Origin: a candidate division WOR-3 bacterium
GTDB taxonomy: Bacteria > Hydrothermota > Tepidihabitantia > Tepidihabitantales > Tepidihabitantaceae
Direction: 5' to 3'
Assembly: GCA_026418295.1 (NCBI GenBank)
Contig: JAOABP010000002.1
Coordinates: forward strand, 26,244-90,243
Length of the DNA stretch: 64,000 nucleotides
Shown: positions 1,380 to 23,341 of the stretch, one piece after another
How positions within the stretch are numbered: position 1 is the stretch's first letter
Layout of the letters: every line of letters begins with the position of its first letter
Translations under genes and position numbers: made by a program
Notes under the pieces: generated by a model
Seen by the model: only the letters and a program-made list of their open reading frames with translations
What the model was told of the DNA's origin: nothing
Databases searched by the model: none

Positions 1380-1732
1380 GGGGGCGAATGGCTTCGACGG
1401 AGTGCCTGAGGGGCTCAGGGGCATAGCGAGGCTCCTCTGTTGCCTCGTTAATACCAACAGAGGAACTACAGCTGCCAACAGCAGCTACGCACTGGCTGCC
1501 TAAAGCGAGGTAGCCCCTGGACCGGCGAGTTTCACCCGGCGCCGGCTCCGGGTCTAACAGGGTGATCAAGACCGAATCTGTGTCTCAGGGGTTCGGTCGG
1601 ATTACTAACTGAGGCTGGTCTGTCCCCGCCTGTCAGTCGGCTAAGGGACAGATGAGATAAAAAGGACTGACTAACTATGTAGAACCTGAGCTCTGAACGC
1701 TTCGGACGCGGGTTCAATTCCCGCCGCCTCCA
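1380..1732 (+). ncRNA. ssrA: tmRNA (SsrA), tag peptide ending ...ANSSYALAA*
   Basis: 5' GGGGGCGAATGGCTTCGACGG and 3' GGACGCGGGTTCAATTCCCGCCGCCTCCA closely match the E. coli ssrA termini. Acceptor stem GGGGGCG/CGCCTCC pairs. In-frame tag reading frame …GCC AAC AGC AGC TAC GCA CTG GCT GCC TAA encodes ANSSYALAA. Confidence 0.93.
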
Positions 1733-1766
1733 TGGCACAAAGAAATGCAGGTTATATAACTTACTG

Positions 1767-8395: not shown

Positions 8396-11300
8396 TTACC
8401 GGTTCAGCACCGTCTTGACCTTGACTGAGGTTTCCGGAGTTGTGAGCCGGATGAAGTAGATACCGCTGGCAACTCTGCTGCCGTTGTCATCAGTGCCATT
8501 CCAGCTGGCGGTATAGGTGCCCGCCTTCATTCTGCCGTTGACCAGAGTTCGCACAATTCTGCCGCTGGCATCAAATACCCTGAGCTCGGCGCTGCCGTCC
8601 TGAGGAATCTGGTAACGGATTACCGTTGTGCGTCTGAACAGACTGGGAGCAACCGCAAGAATTCTGCCATCCTTGAGCAGGGTTACGCCCAAATCTTCAG
8701 CTATGCCGGTGGGATTGTCGGATGAGAATTTGATCGCATGGCCCGGAACCCAGGGTGAGGCACCGCGGTGATAAGCACCGTCAAACAGCATCTGGATGTA
8801 TTTCGTCTTGGTGTGATCCTGAATTCCGACCGTTGCCGACCTGCCGGCGCGGTTGGCGGTCAGATACTGAATGACAAACTTGGAGTTGCCATCTTCAGCC
8901 GCATAAGTGGTATCATAGAGGATGATTTCAAATTTTTCCCACTCGGAGCTGCTGAAATAGTGGACCGAATCCCATTCAATGATGAACCGGTGGTTGGCGG
9001 CGTCGTGATAATACCAGACGCTGTCACCGTAAGGTGGATAGAGGTCGTCCCAGTTGGCAGCGATCAGCGGTGGCATGTCGGTGTTCGGCAGGGCGGTGTT
9101 GGAATAGTTGGTGGCGGTGGTATAACCCGGTGCAATCCAGCCGTTGGAGCAGATTGAAATCTGGTTATAGGACTGGCCGTAGAAGATGAAGGGACCGAAT
9201 GCGGGTGGCAGACTGATCTGCACGGTCTGGTCATCAGTGAGCGACAGTCTCGTGCCGATGCCGTAGATTTCCACCCATTCAAAGGTCGGATGTTCAGGAT
9301 AAAGGATGTCCACCTCATCGTAAGCCCAGTAGAGTGGCGGTTCGGAGTTGTCCGGAACCGGGTCAACCTGCCGGATTTCGCCGACGATGATTGTGAATAC
9401 GGCGGTGCTGGCATAGCCGTTGTCTGCCGAGATGTAAAGTGTGCAGGGGATCGGGGTTTCGGGCAGGATTGCGCTGGAGGCGTAGACGGTGAAGTGGTCG
9501 GTGCGGTTGGTGGCGTTTTCGCCTGCGGGGATATTGCCGTAGACCGCAGTAGAGTCGGTGACGCTCAAGCGGGAGTCACCCGAGCGCAGAACCGCCCGGA
9601 CATTGTAGGCGTTGCCCAGTCCGGAGTTGCTGAGCGTTATTTCCAGATCCGCGGTTTCGCTCGGGTCCAGTCGGCCGTTGGGCTGGGAGCCCATTGAATC
9701 CTTGACCACATGGTTGACAAAGACGATGCTCGGTGCGCCAACATACAGTGTGAACAGCGATATCCAGGTGGAGTCCAGCGCATCCTTGCAGACCAGTGAG
9801 CAGTTGATCGGATAGCGGTTGGGCAGACCCGAGGCAACGCTCATGCCGAATCCCTGAGCGTTGAATGCGGAGTCATTGCCGGCAATGTTACCGAAGGTCT
9901 TGACCGAATCGGTGACGGTGACACCAGCGGTTGAGGTGCGCAGTCGGGCGGTAACACTGTTAGCGGTCAGACTGCCGTAATTCTTGACCCACATCGGAAT
10001 CCGGAATGATTCGCCCGGGTTGATGATGCTGTCGCCATTACCACCCGGCGGTGCGTCGTTGATGTAGTGGCGGAGATAGGAGACATATCTGCCGGAGGAC
10101 ATTACAACGATGGAATCAAGATAGGGTATATTATTGGCACCGCTGACTGCGAGCTTGAGAAAGCCCGGAGTCAGACAGGAGACGAGCAGGGTTACCTGTC
10201 CGGAGGCGTTGGTCCAGCCGCGGACAAATGTTTCACCCGGTTTCTGGAGTACAACCATCGCCGATTCCACCGGAGCAAAGCCCGGGGTCTGGACGGTAAT
10301 CGTGACCGGAATGTTGTTGCCGATGTTGATGGCACCGGGTTTTGAGACCACCGGCACAAACGGCCGGGCGCGCCAGATCGGTGTTGCCGGCTCGCCGAAC
10401 AGGTTGCGCTCCATAATCTCCATCCGGTATTTCTGGGAATCAAGAATTACCGGCACCCAGTAGTTTCTGCCATAGGAGATCATTTCGCCCTGATAAATCT
10501 TGCGGGCGGTGCGGAATCCCAGAAAGCCGTAGCCGATCGCATAGTTCAGCTTCTCCGCAACATTCACCCAGCCGGACTCGTAGTTCATCATGACACCGAT
10601 GAAGCCGTTGGGTGCGTGGTTGAACATGTTTTCGGCGATGCAGTCGCCATTCGTTGACCCCAGATCCCACTGGCCCACATTACACGAGACCGCGGTGATG
10701 CAGTTGAGCCGGTTGGTATTGGTGAGGTTAATCATCATCTGGCTGGTAACGCTTCCGTTCAGGTCATAAAGGTCCGGTGCGCCGTGAGCAATCACCGAGT
10801 TGAAGGTGTAGCCGGAGTTCAGCGAGTCACAGTAACGCTGGGGTGTGGGCTGGATCTGACCGTTGCCGGAGTAATACATCTTCAGGTCAAACCAGGGCGG
10901 GGTGGGCGAGGCGTTGGCGATCGAGTCGTTGTAATTGTCCGAGAAGGTGACACCGTTGGGCAGAAGGATTTTATTCCACCAGCCGCCGGTTGTATCCGGT
11001 GCGGTCTCGTAGCGGATGATTTTGCTCCGGACATTGGCGATCTCACTGAACTGATTCAGGGTCATCATGCCGACATGGACATCGGCATAGCCGTCAACCG
11101 AGTCGGCAAGCTCGCCGAAGATGTTGTTGTTGTTGCGGTCCCAGGTGCCATCCAGATCGGAGAAATACATATCGGAGAAGAAGTCATAGCCATAGGCGCG
11201 GGCAACCCGGTAGTAGTTTGCCGGATAGTCAGGCCGGGCGATGAAGACGAAGATTGTGCCCCAGGTGGTGTCCGCATCCTTGATGAAGTTGCGCATCTTT

Positions 11301-12118
11301 TCCGCATTGTCCCTACCCGGATAGGTGGCGCAGATGGATTCCAGGATGACAATCTTTGAGCGCCAGCCGAGCCGGGTGCGCCAGTCCCGCAGCCAGACCA
11401 GCGAATCGGCAAACTGCTGGCTGGTCATGATCACATGCTCGTAATTGCCGGGCTCAAGGAACCGGGAACCGAAACTGCCGGTTCGCTTCGGCGGGGCAAA
11501 ACGGTCAACGTCCTCAGGATTGAGCACCAGGTGCTTGACCTGATCGCCGAACATCTTCAACTGCATTTCGGTGTATGCCGGGGTGTGGTGTCTGCCGGTT
11601 TCATAACTGAGCCGGACGGTGATTTCCGAGACGAGATACAGTCTGCCTTCAACCGGATTGTAGCGGACCGGATAGATGAGAAAACTGGCAATCCGGTAAC
11701 CGGACATACTGCCGACATGGGCGAAGCGGGCAGGATTTTCAGGCCAGACTTTGTTCTGGCTGTAGACCGCCGGGTCCGGAGGCACGAACGGTTTCGGCTC
11801 ATAGTTCTTCTTCCAGGGAATCGGATGCTGAGCGGGCAGGACCTTGTAAGTGCCGGGAAGTGCCTCTTCCTTGAAAGATACGATTTCCAGACCGGTGACT
11901 TCGGCGTCTGCCGGAATTGCCACCTGATAGGGCAGGCAGGGCAGGTCCGGTTCGCCCAGATTGCTGATATGGGCGGACATGCCGAAGTCCACGGTGGTAT
12001 AGCCGTCCTGACTGCCGAGCTGGAGCGCAGTTGCCGGATACTCAAAGCTCCGGGTGAAGCTGGCGCCCAGGGCAATGGTCAGGCAGGCAGAGAGCGTCAG
12101 AAATACAAGACGCTTCAC
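8396..12118 (-). CDS. secreted peptidase C25 (gingipain-like) family protein with T9SS C-terminal sorting domain
   Basis: GTG start (VKRLVFLTLSACL… signal peptide) 5 nt after SD AAAGGAGG. The longer ORF-track start at 12193 is probably not used. C25-like catalytic region (…VIAHGAPDLY…ITAVSCNVGQWD…). C-terminal LRVFDASGRIVRTLVNG…GTYTASWNGTDDNGSRVASGIYFIRL…KVKTVLNR matches the T9SS type-A CTD pattern. Confidence 0.8.
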   Translation of the reverse strand: MKRLVFLTLSACLTIALGASFTRSFEYPATALQLGSQDGYTTVDFGMSAHISNLGEPDLPCLPYQVAIPADAEVTGLEIVSFKEEALPGTYKVLPAQHPIPWKKNYEPKPFVPPDPAVYSQNKVWPENPARFAHVGSMSGYRIASFLIYPVRYNPVEGRLYLVSEITVRLSYETGRHHTPAYTEMQLKMFGDQVKHLVLNPEDVDRFAPPKRTGSFGSRFLEPGNYEHVIMTSQQFADSLVWLRDWRTRLGWRSKIVILESICATYPGRDNAEKMRNFIKDADTTWGTIFVFIARPDYPANYYRVARAYGYDFFSDMYFSDLDGTWDRNNNNIFGELADSVDGYADVHVGMMTLNQFSEIANVRSKIIRYETAPDTTGGWWNKILLPNGVTFSDNYNDSIANASPTPPWFDLKMYYSGNGQIQPTPQRYCDSLNSGYTFNSVIAHGAPDLYDLNGSVTSQMMINLTNTNRLNCITAVSCNVGQWDLGSTNGDCIAENMFNHAPNGFIGVMMNYESGWVNVAEKLNYAIGYGFLGFRTARKIYQGEMISYGRNYWVPVILDSQKYRMEIMERNLFGEPATPIWRARPFVPVVSKPGAINIGNNIPVTITVQTPGFAPVESAMVVLQKPGETFVRGWTNASGQVTLLVSCLTPGFLKLAVSGANNIPYLDSIVVMSSGRYVSYLRHYINDAPPGGNGDSIINPGESFRIPMWVKNYGSLTANSVTARLRTSTAGVTVTDSVKTFGNIAGNDSAFNAQGFGMSVASGLPNRYPINCSLVCKDALDSTWISLFTLYVGAPSIVFVNHVVKDSMGSQPNGRLDPSETADLEITLSNSGLGNAYNVRAVLRSGDSRLSVTDSTAVYGNIPAGENATNRTDHFTVYASSAILPETPIPCTLYISADNGYASTAVFTIIVGEIRQVDPVPDNSEPPLYWAYDEVDILYPEHPTFEWVEIYGIGTRLSLTDDQTVQISLPPAFGPFIFYGQSYNQISICSNGWIAPGYTTATNYSNTALPNTDMPPLIAANWDDLYPPYGDSVWYYHDAANHRFIIEWDSVHYFSSSEWEKFEIILYDTTYAAEDGNSKFVIQYLTANRAGRSATVGIQDHTKTKYIQMLFDGAYHRGASPWVPGHAIKFSSDNPTGIAEDLGVTLLKDGRILAVAPSLFRRTTVIRYQIPQDGSAELRVFDASGRIVRTLVNGRMKAGTYTASWNGTDDNGSRVASGIYFIRLTTPETSVKVKTVLNR

Positions 12119-12240
12119 TTGACCTCCTTTTTGCTCTGACAGCGTTTTGTTCTGTGTCATAAAGCAGGCCCGAGCCTGGTCAAACTGACACAATGTAAAA
12201 TTATCACCCGGCAGGCACCGATGTCAACAATTAATTTCAT

Positions 12241-15762: not shown

Positions 15763-16098
15763 CTAAGGACCGGCTTCCAGCGTTGTCCGCAGAGCGATCA
15801 GCTCCTTCTTGAGCCAGAGCAGAATTTCCCGCCCGTCTTTTGCCTGCGGGACCTCAACGCTCCGGCTGTTCATCGCCTGCAGTTTCTTCTTTGCTCCCTT
15901 GATTGTCATCTTCTCCCGGTGGAGCAGATGCTGAATCAGCTCCAGTTTCTTTAACTGCTCATCGGAGATGATCCTTCTGCCCGCAGAGTTGCGCTCAAAC
16001 TTGAACTCAAACTCCTTCTCCCAGTAGCGCAGGGTGTATGCCGGCACCCGCAGAATTCTGCAGGCTTCAGACAGGGAATAGAACTTTTTTTCCTTCAT
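15763..16098 (-). CDS. MerR family transcriptional regulator
   Basis: N-terminal HTH YSLSEACRILRVPAYTLRYWEKEF. Confidence 0.75.
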   Translation of the reverse strand: MKEKKFYSLSEACRILRVPAYTLRYWEKEFEFKFERNSAGRRIISDEQLKKLELIQHLLHREKMTIKGAKKKLQAMNSRSVEVPQAKDGREILLWLKKELIALRTTLEAGP

Positions 16099-17093
16099 CA
16101 GTAGAACTCCTTTTTTGTCGGCCTTTTCAGGAGCCGTTCAATGCTGTTTTCCGGCTTTTCGCCCTGATAAAGTATTTTATAAACTTCTTCAGTTATTGGC
16201 AAGTCAATCCGCAGTTTGCGGGCGAGCTCCAGACCGGCGGGGGCGGTCCAGTAGCCCTCAGCAACTCCGCCGAGCTGTTTGAGCGCCGTTTCGGGCGGGA
16301 TGCCCCTGCCGATCGCCATTCCCAGCCGGTGGTTTCTGGACCGCTCGGAAAAGGCGGTAACAATCAGGTCCCCCATGCCTGCCAGTCCGGCAAAGGTCAG
16401 CGGGTTGGCGTTGAGTGCCAGACCCAGCCGGGTGATCTCTGCCAGACCGCGGGTCAAAAGCGCCGATTTGGCATTAATCCCCAGACCGATGCCGTCCGCA
16501 ATGCCGGCAGCGATCGCAATCACATTCTTGAATGCAGCGGCGATCTCCACTCCGACCACATCGGTATGGGAATAGACCCGCAGGTTACGCACGGTAAATG
16601 TGTCCCGGACCAGCCGGGCTGCAGACTCATCCTCACTCACCGCCACGAGCGAGGTCGGGTCACCGTCTGCCACCTCATACGGAATTCCCGGACCGGCAAG
16701 CACCACCACCGGCGGTCCGGGCAGATGCTCCTTCAGCACCACTGAGAACCGTTTCTTCGTTTCCGGGTCAATGCCCTTGGTCACCGAGACAATCACCTGA
16801 CAGAATGAGGACAGCAGTGGTTTTACCCGCTCTGCTGCTGATGCCAGCACCGCGGAAGGGGTGGCGAAGACGGTGATATCGCTCCGGTCAAGCACAATGG
16901 CGGGATCGGAGCTGACGGTGATGGCCTCAGGAACCGGAACCGATTCAGGCAGGTCCGGATGATGCCGGGTTGCCAGCAGACGGGCAAGCGCCTGTCCGTC
17001 CGGCTCATAAAGGGCAACGGTCAGCCCCTTCTCGTAAAGTTTCAGCGCCAGTGCCAGCGCCCAGCGTCCTGCCCCGATGAATCCAGCCTTCAT
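16098..17093 (-). CDS. gpsA: NAD(P)H-dependent glycerol-3-phosphate dehydrogenase
   Basis: MKAGFIGAGRWALALA Rossmann motif, GpsA-length, upstream of plsY as in many bacteria. Confidence 0.9.
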   Translation of the reverse strand: MKAGFIGAGRWALALALKLYEKGLTVALYEPDGQALARLLATRHHPDLPESVPVPEAITVSSDPAIVLDRSDITVFATPSAVLASAAERVKPLLSSFCQVIVSVTKGIDPETKKRFSVVLKEHLPGPPVVVLAGPGIPYEVADGDPTSLVAVSEDESAARLVRDTFTVRNLRVYSHTDVVGVEIAAAFKNVIAIAAGIADGIGLGINAKSALLTRGLAEITRLGLALNANPLTFAGLAGMGDLIVTAFSERSRNHRLGMAIGRGIPPETALKQLGGVAEGYWTAPAGLELARKLRIDLPITEEVYKILYQGEKPENSIERLLKRPTKKEFY

Positions 17094-17095
17094 TT

Positions 17096-17701
17096 CTACC
17101 TCCGGAAGACCTTCAGCCAGAGCCCGAACTTCGGCTCAGTGCCCGCGGTCAGACGGCGGATGTTCGGAATGTGCCGGATGATAATGAGCATACCGGTTAA
17201 CAGTGTAAAGATCAGCAGAGCCCGGTCAAACCGGTAGAAAAGCAGGGTCAGGACCGGCAGACTGAGGGCAAAGGAGATTGAGGAGAGTGAGACAAAGCCG
17301 GAGACAAGCAGCACAAGCAGAAAGACCGCAATTGCGGGCAGAAAGGCGCGGGGACAAAGAACTGCGGTTACGCCGATGGTGGTGGCAACCCCCTTTCCGC
17401 CGTTGAACCCGAGCCAGGGGCAGAAGATGTGGCCAGCAATTGCGCCCAGCCCGACCAGCTCCGGCAGGAGACCGAACCGCTCTGCGAGCAGGACCGGCAC
17501 AATCCCCTTGGCAAGGTCCAGCACCAGCACCGGAACCGCCCAGCCCAGTCCCAGCACCCGCTGGACATTGGTGAAGCCGATGTTGCCCGAGCCGTGCTTG
17601 CGGATGTCAATCCCCTTCAGCCTGCCCGCCAGATAGCCGGCGGGAACCGAGCCGAAGGCAAAGCCGGCAAGAATGGAAATGACAAAAGAAAGGGAATGCA
17701 T
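17096..17701 (-). CDS. plsY: glycerol-3-phosphate acyltransferase PlsY
   Basis: GSVPAGYLAGRLKGIDIRKHGSGNIGFTNVQRVLG. Multi-TM, 201 aa. Confidence 0.93.
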   Translation of the reverse strand: MHSLSFVISILAGFAFGSVPAGYLAGRLKGIDIRKHGSGNIGFTNVQRVLGLGWAVPVLVLDLAKGIVPVLLAERFGLLPELVGLGAIAGHIFCPWLGFNGGKGVATTIGVTAVLCPRAFLPAIAVFLLVLLVSGFVSLSSISFALSLPVLTLLFYRFDRALLIFTLLTGMLIIIRHIPNIRRLTAGTEPKFGLWLKVFRR

Positions 17702-17736
17702 AGCGCTAAATCAAAATAGCGAACCGCGGGTGATTG

Positions 17737-20700
17737 TCAATCTGATGGCAGAAGTTCTGCCTCAACCTGCGGATAGAGCCGGTCAATCTGCCGTTGAATT
17801 TCAACTGTCTTTTTGATGGCGGTTACAATCCCGCAGTAGTGCCGGATTTCCTCGGTGGTCAGCTGTCTGCCGGTGCGGTCCTTGAGCCATTTGGCACACA
17901 CCTGATACCCGCCGATCTGATAGCTCCAGACCTCGGGTGGAACCGGTGCGAAAAATTTGCCGGCGTTGATGAACACCTGCCGGTCCTCATAGCGCACCTT
18001 TTCAATCAGGTTTGTTCCCCTGCCCTGGAACCGGACCGCGGGCGGGTCCAGTTCTGCCGATTTCAGCAGATGCAGGTCAGCGAGCCTTCTGCCCAGCTGT
18101 GCCAGCCGGCGGAAAAGCGGATAACTGCGGGTGAAGGGAATGCGGGGAAAGTCAAACTTGAGAAACTCCGCATATTTCTGCCGGTAGATATCTGAATACA
18201 GCACCGCATAGGTATAATAGAGAATGTCTTCAGGTGCGGGCGAGCGGTTATAGGCACTGCGGAGCCGGTCAAAAATTTCAGGTGCGATGTTCGGCTCCGG
18301 TCTGACCCCGCTCCTTCGCCGGACCGGGAAAAGCTCATCCCTGCCGGTGTCCGGATAGAGGTAAAGGGGGAATAATGATTCACATCCTTTATTGTCAGAG
18401 CGAATAACGCCGTCAGATATCATATGCTCTGTAATAAAAACATAATTGCAAGGATGTGTAGGAAGCATTTGCCTTCTTGTTATTAGCCCCAAATTCTCCT
18501 GCATCATATGCCGCATGACCTCCTCCCGCGGGCGCCAGACTACAGATTTGTGGTAATAAATATATCTCACATCAAATGGTCGATAGAGAATTTTTGTGAA
18601 GTACTTTTCCCAGTTTTCCACCCTCATCAATTCTTGGCGTGCCCTTGAAACCCGCCACATATAATTTTCTGTGAGCTCCAACCCCTTTTTTATAATCGCA
18701 TCCGAGAGGTCTTTATTGAGAAATGTCATTATTCTTGCCTTGAGAGGCTGGAGTTCAAAGTCAATTACAAAGTGGTCACGGGCAGTAACAATACCGGTCA
18801 CATTGACTGGGAAAATTGATGTTACTTGATAGAAACTCTCATACTCTATTTTACCCTTACCCCTCATTGGTACAAACAGGTAATAGGGTTTAACTGGTGC
18901 AACATCTCTCCAACTCGTTTTGTCAATGTCATTCTTCATGAGCCAACCGTACTTTCTATCTCTTGTTCCCCAGATTTCTGAATGGTGAACCCGGCAGGCG
19001 GTTGTGCCGTTACGGTATTTGACCATCAGGGCGATTGCCACTCCCTGCCGGATGTCAAACACATTTTCATCCTTTGAGCCGTCCGGACACCGCTCCTTCT
19101 TCAGGCTGTTGCCGTGCAGGTCCAGGATGTAGATTTCGTTGAAGGTCTTCATCAGCGACTGGCGCATGCCCCGGAAGGTCGGGTTGTCAAGGTAGCTGTG
19201 ATTGGTGATGAAGCCGACCACCCCTTCGCCTGCCTGGCTGATCTTCCACTGGGCAAAGCGGATGAACTTCACATAGTCATCCTGCAGCCAGACTTTTCTT
19301 TCTTTTAAAGGTTCGCCATCGACATGGTAGTAGCTCTGAACCCCGTCCCGGTCCTCCTTGAGGAAGTTGACCATTTCCGGCTTCATATTGGCGGAGATGC
19401 CGGAATAGGGCGGGTTGCCGATGATGACGAGAATCGGCGTTTCCCGCTTGACCCGGACCGCCAGCCGGGACTCGGTTGAGAGCGATGCCATTCCGGGCAG
19501 GCGGGTTTCGGGCAGGGTCTCCATCTCCAGCGTGTTGGTCAGATACAGTTTGACCCGCTCGTCCGGTTTTAACCGGTAGCCCAGCTCCTCAAGCAGAAAC
19601 GCCATCTTCAGGTGTCCCACCGCATAGGGCGCCATCATCAGTTCAAAGGCATAGAAGTTCTCCAGGATGTGCTCGCGGATGAAGTTTTCCTGTGCCCCTT
19701 CGCCATACCGTGCGGTAAACTCCTTGACCGCCAGTTTCGCCGCTTCGGCAAGGAAGGTCAGGGTGCCGGCAGCCGGGTCCAGGACTGTAACCGAGCTGTT
19801 TGCCAGTCCCTCCTGGCGGTTGAACCGGTCCTTGAGAATTTTGTTGACCGAGCGGACGATATAGGAGACCACCGGTTCGGGCGTATAATAGACACCGCGC
19901 CTTTCCCGGGTTTCCGGGTCGTAGACCGCAAGGAAGGTTTCATAGAAGTGGACCACCGGATCACTGCCCCTGCCTTCATGAAAATACTGGTGCAGGATGT
20001 TTTTGACATCGGTAACCGAGAGCACCTCTGCAATGTCGTCAATGATCCATTCCATCGGTTCCGGCAGGTCCTCGAGCGAGATATAGCGGAAGATGTCACG
20101 CAGGATGCCGATTGTGTGCGGGATATTGTCATAGGCAAGCCGGCGGTTGAATTCGCCGGTGGTGCGGGTGCGGGCGGCAAACAGTCCGTAGGTGATGGTC
20201 TGGGCATAAAGGTCGGCAAAGTCTTCCGGGGTGAGGGTGGTGATGAGATACTGCCGGAAGGCTTCGTAAAATCCGGCAAGGGTGCCGGTCTGATCAGCAA
20301 GCTCCTGCTGGAGCTGGCGGGCGATTACCTCATCGCGGAGAAAGCGGGTGCGGCGGGCAAGTTCGCGGGCAAGGGTTTCCGCATCCAGCACGCGGGGCAG
20401 AGAGAAGGCGAAAAACTGTTCGAGCAGGAGGTTGAGTTCTTCCGGCTGTTCCAGTGGTGGCACGAGTCTGAGCCTGTGGGCAGCAAACGGTCTGCCGAGG
20501 AGCGCCTTTTTTACCAGTTTACCTTGGCGGTAGAGCCGGAATTCAAGAAAGTTGGTCAGTATCAGATTGGGGAATGTATCCCGGTAGCGGGTAAACTGTT
20601 CGGACTCTTCAATCCGGTCCAGATTGTCAATTGTTGGCGATTTGGCTTCAATGTAACCGACGATGTGCTGTCTGCCATCCCAGATCCGGAAGTCGGGGTT

Positions 20701-20898
20701 GCCGGCGTCGGTTCCCCTGGGCTGAACGGTGATTTGGATTTTGCTTCTGCCCGATTGAACCGCCCATTCATTGAGCAGTCCGGCAAGAAGCGGATAATAA
20801 CTTTCCTCCCGGGCATCACCGCGGTGAATGAGGGCGCTGATCTCCTTGAGATAGTTCCGGTAGCGGGCAGGTTCCAGCACCTGTTTAGTATTGCCCAA
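17737..20898 (-). CDS. Type IIG/IIL restriction-modification enzyme, MmeI-like fused endonuclease-gamma-class N6-adenine methyltransferase-TRD
   Basis: N-terminal PD-(D/E)xK-like DGRQHIVGYIEAK. MTase motif I VLDPAAGTLTF and motif IV IIGNPPYSG. About 1053 aa single polypeptide. Start codon appears to be TTG (or GTG 6 codons later). Confidence 0.75.
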   Translation of the reverse strand: MGNTKQVLEPARYRNYLKEISALIHRGDAREESYYPLLAGLLNEWAVQSGRSKIQITVQPRGTDAGNPDFRIWDGRQHIVGYIEAKSPTIDNLDRIEESEQFTRYRDTFPNLILTNFLEFRLYRQGKLVKKALLGRPFAAHRLRLVPPLEQPEELNLLLEQFFAFSLPRVLDAETLARELARRTRFLRDEVIARQLQQELADQTGTLAGFYEAFRQYLITTLTPEDFADLYAQTITYGLFAARTRTTGEFNRRLAYDNIPHTIGILRDIFRYISLEDLPEPMEWIIDDIAEVLSVTDVKNILHQYFHEGRGSDPVVHFYETFLAVYDPETRERRGVYYTPEPVVSYIVRSVNKILKDRFNRQEGLANSSVTVLDPAAGTLTFLAEAAKLAVKEFTARYGEGAQENFIREHILENFYAFELMMAPYAVGHLKMAFLLEELGYRLKPDERVKLYLTNTLEMETLPETRLPGMASLSTESRLAVRVKRETPILVIIGNPPYSGISANMKPEMVNFLKEDRDGVQSYYHVDGEPLKERKVWLQDDYVKFIRFAQWKISQAGEGVVGFITNHSYLDNPTFRGMRQSLMKTFNEIYILDLHGNSLKKERCPDGSKDENVFDIRQGVAIALMVKYRNGTTACRVHHSEIWGTRDRKYGWLMKNDIDKTSWRDVAPVKPYYLFVPMRGKGKIEYESFYQVTSIFPVNVTGIVTARDHFVIDFELQPLKARIMTFLNKDLSDAIIKKGLELTENYMWRVSRARQELMRVENWEKYFTKILYRPFDVRYIYYHKSVVWRPREEVMRHMMQENLGLITRRQMLPTHPCNYVFITEHMISDGVIRSDNKGCESLFPLYLYPDTGRDELFPVRRRSGVRPEPNIAPEIFDRLRSAYNRSPAPEDILYYTYAVLYSDIYRQKYAEFLKFDFPRIPFTRSYPLFRRLAQLGRRLADLHLLKSAELDPPAVRFQGRGTNLIEKVRYEDRQVFINAGKFFAPVPPEVWSYQIGGYQVCAKWLKDRTGRQLTTEEIRHYCGIVTAIKKTVEIQRQIDRLYPQVEAELLPSD

Positions 20899-21254
20899 TA
20901 CGGACCGGATGTCAATTTAAGACAACATTTGTTTTTCTCTGACCATAATGCCCCTGTTAAGTTAGAGTCATTTTTTCCCGCCGATTTCACAGCCGGCAGT
21001 GGGGCGGAAATGGCGGTTGCGGTGGAAGTGACGGTTTTGCCGAGGGTTGGCGGGCGAATTGCGTTCGCGGGTGAGGTTTTTCGGGGCTGTACCCCGGGCA
21101 GTTCCCCTCACCGTGTCGGCAGGGAGGATGCCGGCTGGGGATGATGGCGGTGGATTTGCCGTTGTGGCGGTGCGGGTGACACCGGACCGGAGTGCAAGGT
21201 CAGGTTTGACAAGCCGGTCTGGCGTCAATATCCTTATCTGGACAGGCCCGGTCT

Positions 21255-22064
21255 ATGAATCAATTCCAATCTCCACTTGAACCTCAGCCGTTAAGGTTTG
21301 AACCGGATGAGAAACGGCTTGCCCGGCTTGCCCGGTTTCGCCGGATTGTGCTCTGGAGCACGCTGGGGGTGATGGTACTGGCACTGGTGCTGGTGCTTTT
21401 AATGCCGTCAAGGGTAATGGTGATGAGCGGGGAGGTGAAGGCACCACAGGGGTCAGAACCGGTTTCCCAGGCACCGGTCGCCCGTTCCGCCGGTGATAAT
21501 GAGCCGTCAGCGGTGATGCCGGCGCCGGCAGTCAGCCGGGAACCGGCAGGAGAGCCGGTAAGGGCAAATCCGCAGGCTGAGGCAGCGGGTCTGGTGCGGA
21601 CGGTTGATTCCTGTGGAAGCCTGGCACGGGAGCAGTGGATGCGGGCAGGGGTAATGATTACTGCGGTCACGGTCCGGCTGGAGAATGTGCCGGAGATTCT
21701 GAAGCGGATTGGAATTGCCCGGGCGATTGCGGACAGCGCGCAGGCACGGCTTGCGCAGGCTGAGGCAACGCTGGAGCGGTTGAAGGGTCTGCTGCGGGTT
21801 TCCGGGGGCGCAGGGACGCGGATTAATTCCGCCTATGCGGCTGCCCGGGAGTATGTGAGTCTGATAAGCGAGGAGGCGGGTGACCGGCAGGGCTGGCTTG
21901 ACAGTTATGAGCAGGCGATCCGGGCGCTGGGCGATGATGACTCTGCCCAGTTTGAGATCAAGATGAATGTGGCGGGTGCCTATCAGCGGAAGTCGGATGT
22001 CCGGCAGAAGCGGCTTATCCGGGCAGAGGCGGCGTTGCGCTCCGCGGCTGAGGGGCTGAAATGA
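21255..22064 (+). CDS. hypothetical membrane-anchored protein (single N-terminal TM, Ala/Arg-rich helical C-terminal part)
   Basis: IVLWSTLGVMVLALVLVLLMP TM segment. No recognisable domain. Confidence 0.45.
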   Translation: MNQFQSPLEPQPLRFEPDEKRLARLARFRRIVLWSTLGVMVLALVLVLLMPSRVMVMSGEVKAPQGSEPVSQAPVARSAGDNEPSAVMPAPAVSREPAGEPVRANPQAEAAGLVRTVDSCGSLAREQWMRAGVMITAVTVRLENVPEILKRIGIARAIADSAQARLAQAEATLERLKGLLRVSGGAGTRINSAYAAAREYVSLISEEAGDRQGWLDSYEQAIRALGDDDSAQFEIKMNVAGAYQRKSDVRQKRLIRAEAALRSAAEGLK

Positions 22065-22123: not shown

Positions 22124-23341
22124 ATGTTTGATTACCGTCTGGTGCCGATTGAACCGAATGACAGAAAGATTGTGCTGGTAATTCTGGACGGGCTGGGCGG
22201 TCTGCCACTGAAGGATAAGACTGAGCTCGAGACCGCCTGGGTGCCGAATCTGGATCAGCTGGCGGTGAAGTCGGCGCTGGGAAAGATGGTGCCGATTGCG
22301 CGCGGGGTGACTCCGGGTTCCGGTGCTGCCCATCTGGCGATCTTCGGTTATGACCCGGTGCAGTATCCGGTTGGCAGAGGGGTGCTGGAGGCGCTGGGGT
22401 GCGGTCTGAATCCCGGTCCGGGGGATCTGTGCGCCCGGGCAAATTTTGCCACCGTGGATGAGAATGGCGTGATTACCGACCGCCGGGCAAAGGAGAACGG
22501 GGAGCGGATGCGGGATCAGGAGTGTGCGGAGCTGTGTGAGCTATTGGAGGAGAAGATTCCCGAGATTGACGGGGTGAAGGTAACGATTGTGCCCGGGAAG
22601 GGGCACCGGTTTGTGGTGATGTTTTCCGGTCCGGGGCTGGCAGACGGTCTGAGCGATTCCGACCCGGGTAAGGAAGGGAAGACACCACTGCCGGTGCAGG
22701 CGCTGAAACCGGAGGCGGAGAGGTCGGCGCAGGTTGCCAACCGGTTTATTGAGCTGGCAGCCGGAGCGCTGAAAGGGCGTAAAAGGGCAAATTATGTGCT
22801 TTTGCGCGGGCTGGCACTGCCACCACGACTGCCCAATTTTCAGGAGCGCTATCAGCTGCGGGCGGCAGCAATCGCCGCCTATCCGATGTACCGGGGTCTG
22901 GCAAGACTGGTGGGGATGCGGGTTCTGCCGTGCGGAGAGACCTGGGAGTCGGAGATTGAGACGCTGGAGAAGAATTATGCCCATTACGATTTTTTCTATA
23001 TCCATTTCAAGGAGTTTGATCAGGCGGGTGAGGATGGAGATTTTGAGCGCAAGGTGGAACTGCTGGAGCAGTTTGATGAGCGGATTGTGCCCCGGCTGGT
23101 GAAGCTGAAGCCGGATGTGCTGTGCATCACCGGCGATCATTCCACTCCCGCAGTGCTCAAGGGACACTCCTGGCACACGGTGCCGTTGCTGATTCATTCA
23201 CCCTGGGTCCGGGTTCATTCCTTTGCTGAGGAGTTCGGAGAGCGGGCGTGTATCCGGGGAAGTCTCGGGCTGATCTTCGGTATTGAGATCATGCCGCTGC
23301 TTATGGCAAACGCCCAGCGGTTCGGGAAGTTCGGGGCTTAG
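22124..23341 (+). CDS. apgM: 2,3-bisphosphoglycerate-independent phosphoglycerate mutase, archaeal-type (ApgM family)
   Basis: IVLVILDGLGG, CITGDHSTPAVLKGHSWHTVPLLI. About 405 aa metalloenzyme-superfamily layout. Confidence 0.82.
   Translation: MFDYRLVPIEPNDRKIVLVILDGLGGLPLKDKTELETAWVPNLDQLAVKSALGKMVPIARGVTPGSGAAHLAIFGYDPVQYPVGRGVLEALGCGLNPGPGDLCARANFATVDENGVITDRRAKENGERMRDQECAELCELLEEKIPEIDGVKVTIVPGKGHRFVVMFSGPGLADGLSDSDPGKEGKTPLPVQALKPEAERSAQVANRFIELAAGALKGRKRANYVLLRGLALPPRLPNFQERYQLRAAAIAAYPMYRGLARLVGMRVLPCGETWESEIETLEKNYAHYDFFYIHFKEFDQAGEDGDFERKVELLEQFDERIVPRLVKLKPDVLCITGDHSTPAVLKGHSWHTVPLLIHSPWVRVHSFAEEFGERACIRGSLGLIFGIEIMPLLMANAQRFGKFGA

What the first reader, a model, noticed from the sequence alone, without database searches (positions are those of the whole stretch)
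17737..20898. Solitary MmeI-like Type IIG/IIL restriction-modification gene inserted between plsY and a hypothetical gene
A single roughly 1050-aa polypeptide has an N-terminal PD-(D/E)xK nuclease signature, gamma-class MTase motifs (DPAAGTLTF, NPPY) and a long C-terminal region, the self-sufficient architecture of MmeI-family enzymes. Its neighbours (gpsA-plsY on one side, apgM on the other) are core genes and there is no separate methylase or specificity gene. It therefore looks like a minimal one-gene defence insertion. The start codon seems to be TTG with a TTGACA hexamer only about 20 nt upstream, hinting at a very short or leaderless 5' end.
Basis: partly seen in the sequence, partly recalled or inferred. 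Interest (0 to 1): 0.58.

Follow-up and report, generated by a model that had tools for sequence, protein, structure and literature searches.

The report
Single-gene DrdV-like restriction-modification enzyme
This is an intact one-gene restriction-modification enzyme of a large, already known family (nearest solved relative DrdV, not MmeI), inserted upstream of plsY in an uncultured WOR-3-like bacterium; its DNA-recognition segment has been swapped compared with a close relative.

Summary
The ORF is real: 17737-20898 on the minus strand, 1053 aa.

It is a stand-alone Type IIG/IIL enzyme combining nuclease, methyltransferase and target-recognition domain (TRD). It is not MmeI-family by sequence. 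Pfam finds Type_ISP_C (5e-85), and MmeI_Mtase scores below its cut-off. The best solved relative by sequence and predicted fold is DrdV (7LO5), followed by the ATP-dependent Type ISP enzymes LlaBIII and LlaGI. There is no ATPase domain.

The motif E31...P68-D69...E84-x-K86 is invariant in diverse homologues. An N-terminus-only profile hits only DrdV's N-terminal region.

Related genomes confirm an insertion. Five WOR-3-like relatives lack the gene upstream of plsY, and two of them keep the hypothetical gene and apgM beside plsY. The insertion is not recent: a close relative (L003) has the gene at the same site with host-like synonymous divergence.

Only about 660 nt (18289-18948, the TRD core) is non-orthologous and low in GC. 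Two sub-modules of this segment reassort across the family.

The likely start is GTG 20880, not TTG 20898. It lies 6 nt after a conserved TTGACA-N17-AATACT promoter, so the mRNA is probably leaderless, which appears common in this window.

Verdict: an ordinary new member of a known kind.

The parts
17737..20880 (-). Restriction-modification gene with revised coordinates: GTG start at 20880, stop TGA at 17739-17737, 1047 aa. The maximal ORF from TTG 20898 gives 1053 aa; residue numbers in this report count from that TTG.
20887..20915 (-). Promoter-like site TTGACA (20915-20910), 17-nt spacer, AATACT (20892-20887). GTG 20880 begins 6 nt after the -10, which implies a leaderless mRNA. This 40-nt block is almost perfectly conserved in L003 while the sequence upstream of it is not.
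20494..20811 (-). N-terminal PD-(D/E)xK endonuclease domain (aa ~30-135). Catalytic motif E31, P68-D69 (20692-20697) and E84-A-K86 (20641-20649).
   Evidence: The motif is invariant in 119 close and 22 diverse homologues. An N-terminus-only profile hits DrdV residues 5-211 at E 5e-5, the only significant PDB match. The AF2 secondary structure is alpha-beta-beta-beta-alpha-beta.
19960..20451 (-). Helical connector (aa ~150-313).
   Evidence: All-helical in the AF2 model. Matches the two PADLOC Type IIG profiles and aligns to the DrdV connector.
18949..19959 (-). Gamma-class N6-adenine methyltransferase domain (aa ~314-650). Motif I DPAAGTLTF at 19753-19779; motif IV NPPY at 19405-19416.
18289..18948 (-). 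Variable TRD cassette (aa 651-870; TRD core plus three-helix 'jaw'). Module A is aa 651-800 (18499-18948) and module B is aa 801-870 (18289-18498). The cassette is low in GC and not orthologous to the allele in the close relative L003.
   Evidence: Subdomain assignment is by alignment to LlaBIII and PMC4872093.
17740..18288 (-). Conserved C-terminal part of the TRD (aa 871-1053; 'guide'-like subdomain of Type_ISP_C).
17713..17740 (-). plsY promoter TTGACA-N16-TATTTT. The RM stop codon TGA (17739-17737) lies inside its -35 hexamer. This marks the plsY-side edge of the insertion.
   Evidence: TTGACAAT...TAT(T/C/G)TT is conserved upstream of plsY in L003, L004, L007, L008 and L009
17096..17701 (-). 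plsY, a core flanking gene and not part of the system.
21255..22064 (+). 269-aa hypothetical gene, the flank on the other side. It is conserved next to apgM in the RM-less relatives L005 and L006, so it is not a partner of the enzyme.

Best explanation
The gene encodes a stand-alone, ATP-independent Type IIL (a subtype of IIG) restriction-modification enzyme of the DrdV-like family. One chain carries four parts:
- an N-terminal PD-(D/E)xK endonuclease;
- a helical connector;
- a gamma-class SAM-dependent N6-adenine methyltransferase;
- a C-terminal Type ISP-type TRD made of core, jaw and guide subdomains.

By analogy with DrdV, the following is inferred rather than shown. The MTase-TRD clamp reads a short asymmetric site and methylates one adenine on one strand of host DNA. 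On unmodified foreign DNA, several site-bound molecules assemble, and the nuclease domains, acting in trans, cut both strands at a fixed short distance from the site.

The gene was inserted just upstream of the plsY promoter in an ancestor of this WOR-3-like lineage and has been inherited vertically since. The exception is a TRD cassette of about 660 nt (18289-18948), which was replaced by recombination. Closely related strains should therefore differ in recognition sequence.

The gene is probably transcribed from its own TTGACA-N17-AATACT promoter as a leaderless mRNA starting at GTG 20880.
For: Domains and family:
- Pfam Type_ISP_C 5e-85 at aa 694-1033, plus N6_Mtase.
- PADLOC REase_MTase_IIG PDLC03610, 874 bits.
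- PDB by sequence: only DrdV, LlaBIII and LlaGI.
- AF2 model (pLDDT 72.9): DrdV E 1.7e-36 with an alignment of about 1130 columns, LlaBIII 5e-30, PglX 1.6e-8, MmeI 3e-7.

Nuclease:
- E31, PD68-69 and ExK84-86 are invariant.
- The N-terminal profile matches DrdV residues 5-211 at E 5e-5.
- The N-terminal 314 aa alone matches two Type IIG PADLOC families.
- The module occurs at the N-terminus of proteins of roughly 1000-1100 aa in 2269 cluster representatives.

Solitary: no conserved partner gene in this locus or in four other genomes.

Insertion: the gene is present upstream of plsY in the window, L003 and L004 and absent in L005-L009. L005 and L006 have the hypothetical gene, about 670 bp, then plsY.

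Functional constraint and vertical descent: dN/dS is 0.145 (aa 1-650) and 0.23 (aa 851-1053). dS is 0.39-0.41, against 0.18-0.34 for the neighbouring genes.

Cassette swap: aa 651-850 are 30-50% identical to L003, against 84-98% for most flanking 50-aa blocks. Synonymous sites there are saturated (pS 0.77) and GC is 0.39-0.45 against 0.50-0.64.

Promoter and start.

Mechanism of DrdV: bioRxiv 10.1101/2021.01.06.425610.
Against: - No activity, recognition site or methylation motif is known for this protein or, as far as these tools show, for any member of its ~60%-identity group.
- Similarity to DrdV is distant (about 21% identity in the fold alignment). Cut distance and oligomeric mechanism are extrapolations.
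- The N-terminal 314 aa of the single sequence has no significant PDB or Pfam hit on its own. Homology to the DrdV nuclease appears only with a profile, at a modest E of 5e-5.
- Motif I reads GTL rather than the GxG seen in DrdV and LlaBIII. It is invariant in the family, so it is presumably functional, but this is untested.
- The promoter and leaderless start rest on a sigma-70 consensus that has not been validated for WOR-3.
Confidence: 0.85

Rival explanations
1. It is a member of the MmeI family proper: MmeI-type N-terminal, helical, MTase, TRD and C-terminal domains, cutting 20/18 from the site.
For: The overall architecture and class are the same: a single chain with N-terminal nuclease, gamma-class MTase and C-terminal TRD. 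There is a weak MmeI_Mtase hit (17.2 bits), and MmeI appears in the fold search at E 3e-7.
Against: MmeI_Mtase is below its 27-bit cut-off, and no MmeI_N, MmeI_hel, MmeI_TRD or MmeI_C hit appears. MmeI and BpuSI are absent from sequence and profile searches of the PDB. DrdV is better by about 29 orders of magnitude in the fold search. The C-terminal domain is Type_ISP_C.
Confidence: 0.04
2. It is mainly a DNA methyltransferase, acting as an orphan or epigenetic regulator or as a BREX PglX-like enzyme, with a nuclease domain that is vestigial or serves another role.
For: It is stably inherited beside core genes with host-like divergence. PglX/BrxX and the orphan MTase CamA appear as distant structural relatives. 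There is a weak MADS MAD2 hit.
Against: The nuclease catalytic residues are invariant across thousands of relatives, and the N-terminal region is under purifying selection. No BREX or MADS partner genes are present. The PADLOC best hits are Type IIG REase-MTase profiles covering the full length. Rapid TRD exchange is typical of defence enzymes.
Confidence: 0.07
3. It is a Type ISP enzyme, or a truncated remnant of one that has lost its ATPase motor and is no longer a working restriction enzyme.
For: The MTase-TRD is clearly homologous to LlaBIII and LlaGI. Source databases often label homologues 'type ISP' or 'predicted helicase'.
Against: There is no helicase or ATPase domain. The 310 aa before the MTase form a nuclease plus helical connector shared with DrdV. 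The N-terminal module defines a large family of about 1000-1100-aa proteins with this architecture. No Mrr_cat hit is found, and the gene is under purifying selection.
Confidence: 0.03

Closest known systems
DrdV (Deinococcus wulumuqiensis Type IIL RM enzyme; PDB 7LO5/7LVV)
   Same: Single chain of about 1030-1050 aa in the same order: PD...ExK nuclease, helical connector, gamma-class N6A MTase, Type ISP-like TRD. No ATPase. It is the best PDB match by sequence (3.5e-48; 8.4e-70 with a profile) and by fold (1.7e-36, alignment of about 1130 columns). The N-terminal profile hits only DrdV.
   Different: Only about 21% identity in the fold alignment. Motif I is DPAAGTLTF here and DPATGTGTF in DrdV. 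The recognition site, cut distance and oligomerisation are unknown here. The window protein belongs to a separate, very large and tightly conserved subfamily (core median identity 77%) that best matches PADLOC PDLC03610.
[quoted passage not shown]
   Same: Homologous MTase-TRD unit, including the Type_ISP_C domain with core, three-helix jaw and guide subdomains. The variable TRD contrasts with a conserved guide, as described in PMC4872093.
   Different: There is no SF2 ATPase motor and no Mrr-type nuclease, and the protein is about 500 aa shorter. It therefore cannot use the translocation-collision mechanism.
MmeI family (Type IIL; PDB 5HR4) and BpuSI (Type IIG; 3S1S)
   Same: Same functional class and domain order. 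Host protection by single-strand methylation is expected.
   Different: No MmeI Pfam domain passes its cut-off. These are only remote structural matches (E 3e-7 and 4e-7) and are not found by sequence.
BREX PglX/BrxX methyltransferase
   Same: Distantly related gamma-class MTase-TRD fold (E 1.6e-8).
   Different: PglX has no PD-(D/E)xK nuclease and works with brxA/B/C, pglZ and brxL. None of these is nearby, and no PglX profile appears among the PADLOC hits.

Membership tests
DrdV-like Type IIL (Type IIG) single-chain RM enzymes | N-terminal PD-(D/E)xK endonuclease domain on the same chain | tested here: met
   E31, P68-D69 and E84-x-K86 are invariant in 119 close and 22 diverse homologues. 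The N-terminal profile hits DrdV residues 5-211 at E 5e-5. The AF2 secondary structure is alpha-beta-beta-beta-alpha-beta.
DrdV-like Type IIL (Type IIG) single-chain RM enzymes | Gamma-class N6-adenine MTase, with motif I before motif IV and the TRD C-terminal | tested here: met
   DPAAGTLTF at aa 374-382 and NPPY at aa 495-498, both invariant. Pfam N6_Mtase 3e-07.
DrdV-like Type IIL (Type IIG) single-chain RM enzymes | C-terminal TRD homologous to that of DrdV and the Type ISP enzymes | tested here: met
   PF18135 Type_ISP_C 5e-85 covering profile positions 1-338 of 342. DrdV, LlaBIII and LlaGI are the only PDB sequence hits. Fold search E 1.7e-36.
DrdV-like Type IIL (Type IIG) single-chain RM enzymes | No ATPase/translocase domain and no separate M or S subunit gene | tested here: met
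   1047-1053 aa, fully accounted for by nuclease, connector, MTase and TRD. Neighbours are plsY and a hypothetical gene that is conserved in RM-less relatives. No conserved partner in four other genomes.
DrdV-like Type IIL (Type IIG) single-chain RM enzymes | Methylates one strand of an asymmetric site and cleaves at a fixed distance from it | not testable with these tools
   Needs a methylome or biochemistry. REBASE is not available here.
MmeI family | MmeI-type domains (Pfam MmeI_N, MmeI_hel, MmeI_Mtase, MmeI_TRD, MmeI_C) | tested here: not met
   Only MmeI_Mtase appears, at 17.2 bits against a 27-bit cut-off; none of the others does. MmeI is absent from the PDB sequence hits.
Type ISP RM enzymes | SF2 helicase-like ATPase between nuclease and MTase, plus an Mrr-type nuclease | tested here: not met
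   No helicase, ATPase or Mrr_cat hit. The LlaBIII alignment starts at its residue 845, after the motor.
BREX (PglX) | MTase without a nuclease, encoded within a brx/pgl gene cluster | tested here: not met
   A nuclease domain is present. No BREX genes lie within +/-10 kb. PADLOC lists no PglX profile.

The most novel reading that the evidence does not exclude
The family may work as a natural combinatorial-specificity system. Two TRD sub-modules, aa ~651-800 (core N-terminal half plus jaw) and aa ~801-870 (core loops), are bracketed by near-invariant motifs: HSEIWG, GIVTARD, ILYRPFD, VMRHMxxENLGL and FPLYLYP. The modules appear to circulate as low-GC cassettes across phyla and recombine independently. 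This would re-programme the recognition sequence of a resident, vertically inherited gene without replacing it. The window carries a module pair not seen in any of its 119 closest homologues. If module type could be mapped to recognised bases, specificities could be predicted and designed.
Probability: 0.4. Interest if true: 0.4.

Novelty: new member of a known kind. Interest (0 to 1): 0.22.

Why it matters
The finding matters mainly for annotation. It shows that a very abundant group of ~1050-aa proteins, which source databases label 'predicted helicase', 'type ISP' or 'DNA methyltransferase', are DrdV-like single-chain Type IIL enzymes with an intact nuclease.

The window and L003 also form a clean natural example of a specificity switch. 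The two genes are otherwise orthologous and differ only in a roughly 660-nt TRD cassette. That pairing could be used to test which TRD modules read which bases, and it marks strain-level differences in phage or DNA-uptake barriers within an uncultured WOR-3-like lineage.

Nothing here challenges current understanding of restriction-modification systems.

Tried and rejected
1. The first AF2 run with 17 sequences gave pLDDT 48.6 and was discarded. The rerun with 119 sequences gave 72.9.
2. The N-terminal 314 aa as a single sequence found nothing significant in Pfam or the PDB. A 22-sequence profile of diverse N-termini was needed.
3. I looked for a structured RNA or riboswitch in the 356-nt intergenic region. 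There was no Rfam hit at E<=1, and fold z-scores were -0.65 and -1.04.
4. I looked for scars of a mobile element around the gene. No flanking direct or inverted repeats beyond chance-size matches were found, no tRNA, and no integrase or transposase among the neighbours.
5. No intrinsic terminator lies between the RM gene and plsY, so read-through into plsY cannot be excluded. plsY does have its own conserved promoter.
6. I considered whether the 86-aa ORF that JGI called at 20968-21228(-) is a partner gene. It was called in only one of two identical assemblies, is only 56% identical to L003, and its conservation pattern is not codon-like. I rejected it as a gene.
7. I tested whether the L004 copy is a strict ortholog. 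This is unresolved. It is 75% identical in the core to the window, which is compatible with GpsA at 74%. Its nearest relative, at 93%, sits in an unrelated genome.
8. I asked whether the low GC of the TRD marks a recent import into the window only. It does not: L003 and L004 show the same dip, so it is a property of TRD cassettes in this family.
Full report
**Observation**

The minus-strand ORF 17737..20898 (1053 aa from the first TTG) exists.

The flanking genes are as stated. On one side are plsY (17096-17701, TIGR00023 3e-48) and gpsA (16098-17093). On the other are a 269-aa protein with no family hit (21255-22064) and apgM (22124-23341).

The ORF is a real gene. The identical protein is in JGI metagenome contigs, and more than 8000 database proteins match it, typically about 60% identical over 98% of its length.

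The organism is an uncultured bacterium. Its nearest genome relatives include a 'candidate division WOR-3' MAG (GpsA 66%).

**What the protein is**

Pfam finds Type_ISP_C (PF18135, 5e-85, aa 694-1033) and N6_Mtase. MmeI_Mtase scores 17.2 bits against a 27-bit cut-off, and no other MmeI domain appears. PADLOC's best match is the Type IIG REase-MTase profile PDLC03610 (874 bits), and a second Type IIG profile aligns over aa 13-1009.

Against all PDB sequences only three proteins match, with either the single sequence or a 119-sequence profile:
- DrdV (7LO5/7LVV): aligned over aa 16-786 and 885-946; 8.4e-70 with the profile.
- LlaBIII.
- LlaGI.

The two Type ISP enzymes align only from their MTase onward, that is, after their ATPase motors.

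An AlphaFold model built on 119 homologues (pLDDT 72.9) gives these fold-search matches:

| Target | E-value |
|---|---|
| DrdV (alignment of about 1130 columns) | 1.7e-36 |
| LlaBIII | 5e-30 |
| CamA | 7e-9 |
| BrxX/PglX | 1.6e-8 |
| MmeI | 3e-7 |
| BpuSI | 4e-7 |

DrdV is described as a 1029-residue single-chain Type IIL enzyme with an N-terminal nuclease, helical connector, MTase and C-terminal TRD. Its MTase and TRD are 'highly similar' to those of LlaGI and LlaBIII (bioRxiv 10.1101/2021.01.06.425610). The window protein has that architecture.

**The nuclease domain**

- The N-terminal 314 aa alone has no significant Pfam or PDB hit. The N-terminal part of the DrdV alignment therefore cannot be taken at face value.
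- The same 314 aa independently match two PADLOC Type IIG families (2e-52 and 3e-27).
- In a search of 1.84 billion cluster representatives the module is found in 2269 proteins. Almost always it lies at residues ~3-300 of proteins of about 1000-1100 aa, or of fragments of them.
- In an alignment of 22 diverse N-termini (31-60% identical), E31, P68, D69, G81, E84 and K86 are invariant.
- A profile of that alignment hits exactly one PDB chain significantly: DrdV residues 5-211, at E 5e-5. The PD and ExK motifs are in register.
- The predicted secondary structure around the motif is the alpha-beta-beta-beta-alpha-beta core typical of PD-(D/E)xK nucleases.

The nuclease signature is therefore conserved and homologous to that of a characterised restriction enzyme.

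**Solitary gene**

No methylase, specificity or BREX-type gene lies within 10 kb. The 269-aa neighbour is conserved beside apgM in relatives that lack the enzyme, so it is not a partner.

Four homologues in other genomes sit among unrelated housekeeping genes with no shared neighbour. One of them lies next to an independent SacI-like Type II system.

**Insertion test**

- L003: neighbours 89-99% identical. The gene is at the same place, 79% identical.
- L004: GpsA 74%. The gene is at the same place, 66% identical, and cut by the contig end.
- L005 and L006: GpsA 66%. These keep S13, MGS, apgM and the hypothetical gene next to plsY, gpsA, merR and FTHFS. Only about 670 bp with no RM homolog lies between the hypothetical gene and plsY.
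- L007, L008 and L009: these also lack the gene upstream of plsY.

The plsY promoter (TTGACAAT...TATTTT) is conserved in loci with and without the gene. In the window the RM stop codon TGA lies inside its -35 hexamer, which places one edge of the insertion.

No repeats, tRNA or recombinase mark the insertion.

**Age and selection**

Between the window and L003 the RM core has dS 0.41 and dN/dS 0.145 (aa 1-650), and dS 0.39 and dN/dS 0.23 (aa 851-1053). The neighbouring genes have dS 0.18-0.34.

The gene has therefore been inherited vertically under purifying selection since these lineages split. It is an old, maintained insertion, not a fresh one.

Orthology of the L004 copy is unresolved. Its core is 75% identical to the window, about the same as GpsA. 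It is 93% identical to P0003, which lies in an unrelated genome and context. This shows that the family still moves between lineages.

**TRD cassette exchange**

DNA identity between the window and L003 is 0.77-0.98 across most of about 9 kb, with two exceptions: 18271-19020 (0.49-0.67) and part of the upstream intergenic region.

Within the protein, aa 651-850 are 30-50% identical, while most flanking 50-aa blocks are 84-98% identical (the two terminal blocks are 72-74%). Synonymous sites in that stretch are saturated (pS 0.77). GC falls to 0.39-0.45 (GC3 0.36-0.56), against 0.50-0.64 elsewhere in the gene. Breakpoints lie near aa 631-650 and aa 870.

The segment is itself mosaic:
- aa 651-800 is closest (64-67%) to P0018, P0019, P0007 and the L004 allele.
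- aa 801-860 is closest (78-83%) to a different set: P0014, P0021, P0046 and P0103.

Across the 119 closest homologues, median pairwise identity differs sharply by region:

| Region | Median pairwise identity |
|---|---|
| Core (aa 158-640) | 0.77 |
| Module A (aa 651-790) | 0.49 |
| Module B (aa 806-842) | 0.21 |

The similarity matrices of these regions are almost uncorrelated (Spearman 0.06-0.17).

Clustering gives 13 A types and 33 B types in 62 combinations. There are 46 cases in which two A types and two B types occur in all four pairings, which indicates recombination between the modules. The window's pair is unique among the 119.

By alignment to LlaBIII and the subdomain limits in PMC4872093, module A covers the first part of the TRD core and the three-helix jaw (helices 716-727, 733-739 and 750-758 in the model). 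Module B covers later core strands and loops. The conserved C-terminus corresponds to the guide. That mapping is an inference.

The low-GC dip is also present in the L003 and L004 alleles. It is therefore a property of the circulating cassettes, not proof of which strain changed.

**Start codon and promoter**

A consensus scan finds TTGACA (20915-20910), a 17-nt spacer and AATACT (20892-20887). The TTG at 20898 lies inside the spacer and so would not be transcribed from this promoter.

In-frame GTG 20880 begins 6 nt after the -10. In L003 this codon is ATG. The 40-nt block from TTGACA to the start differs at a single base apart from that G/A in the start codon, while the sequence upstream diverges. 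Homologues begin 'ML...', in register with V7-L8.

The likely product is therefore 1047 aa, translated from a leaderless mRNA.

This geometry is not special to the RM gene. Eight of the 16 strongest promoter-like sites in the window have the start codon 5-12 nt after the -10, including apgM and plsY. All of this is inferred from consensus matching and conservation, not from mapped transcripts.

**Mechanism**

The following is shown by sequence and model:
- the domain composition;
- intact catalytic motifs;
- absence of a motor domain;
- absence of partner genes;
- purifying selection;
- cassette exchange.

The following is inferred from DrdV, MmeI and the Type ISP structures:
- The MTase-TRD clamp recognises a short asymmetric site and flips and methylates one adenine on one strand.
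- On unmodified DNA carrying several sites, bound molecules assemble.
- The N-terminal nucleases, acting in trans, cut at a fixed distance from the site.

The recognition sequence and cut distance cannot be predicted here.

**Comparison and novelty**

By every test I could run, the protein belongs with DrdV-like Type IIL enzymes. It fails the sequence tests for the MmeI family, Type ISP (no ATPase, no Mrr nuclease) and BREX PglX.

It is a new, uncharacterised member of a very large known kind. TRD variability and modularity are already described for Type ISP, MmeI-family and Type I enzymes. The two-module reassortment seen here is a tidy example rather than a new principle.

Interest is low to modest.

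Noticed in passing
window 21065-21254: The non-coding block between the RM gene and the 269-aa gene is >=90% identical to L003, while the adjacent 20930-21065 is only ~50-65% identical. It includes a TTGACA-N17-TATCCT promoter for the 269-aa gene (21206-21234) plus about 140 nt more. There is no Rfam hit and the fold z-scores are not significant. JGI called an 86-aa ORF here (20968-21228, minus strand) in one assembly only; it is probably not coding.
   Followed up: partly
window, e.g. starts at 12193(-), 17701(-), 20880(-), 22124(+), 24798(+), 42411(-), 48982(-), 59146(+): Eight of the 16 strongest sigma-70-like promoter matches in the window have the start codon only 5-12 nt after the -10 hexamer. 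This suggests that leaderless or near-leaderless mRNAs are common in this WOR-3-like organism.
   Followed up: partly
window 17713-17740: The RM stop codon TGA (17739-17737) is embedded in the -35 hexamer TTGACA of the plsY promoter. That promoter is conserved in relatives with and without the RM gene. No terminator separates the two genes.
   Followed up: yes
L004:14-2710 versus L021:6001-9168: The RM allele upstream of plsY in L004 is 93% (core) or 89% (full length) identical to P0003. P0003 lies in an unrelated genome, between an archease gene and an unannotated 206-aa gene. This is evidence of recent transfer of the gene family between lineages.
   Followed up: partly
L025:9305-11502: One homologue (P0113) sits immediately next to an N6_N4_Mtase plus SacI-like endonuclease pair, forming a small restriction-modification cluster.
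   Followed up: no
window 1380-1735: A tmRNA gene (Rfam RF00023, 181 bits) is the only Rfam family reaching its gathering score in the window.
   Followed up: no
L005:8730-9390 and L006:8705-9390: The 'empty site' between the hypothetical gene and plsY is about 670 bp of AT-rich non-coding DNA. Several blocks appear shared between the two genomes, for example CCCC(T/C)GGAACGACCCA and AATATGTTAACCAA. Its nature was not examined.
   Followed up: no
window 19753-19779 (aa 374-382): MTase motif I reads DPAAGTLTF. The second glycine of the usual GxG (DrdV and LlaBIII have GTGTF) is replaced by leucine. The substitution is invariant in 17 and at least 90% conserved in 119 homologues, so it is family-specific. 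Its consequence for SAM binding is unknown.
   Followed up: no
window ~8396-12193(-) (L001:18739-22503): A large protein of about 1250-1265 aa with Peptidase_C25 (gingipain-like) propeptide and catalytic domains plus FlgD_ig lies a few kb from the locus. It also has a leaderless-type promoter geometry.
   Followed up: no
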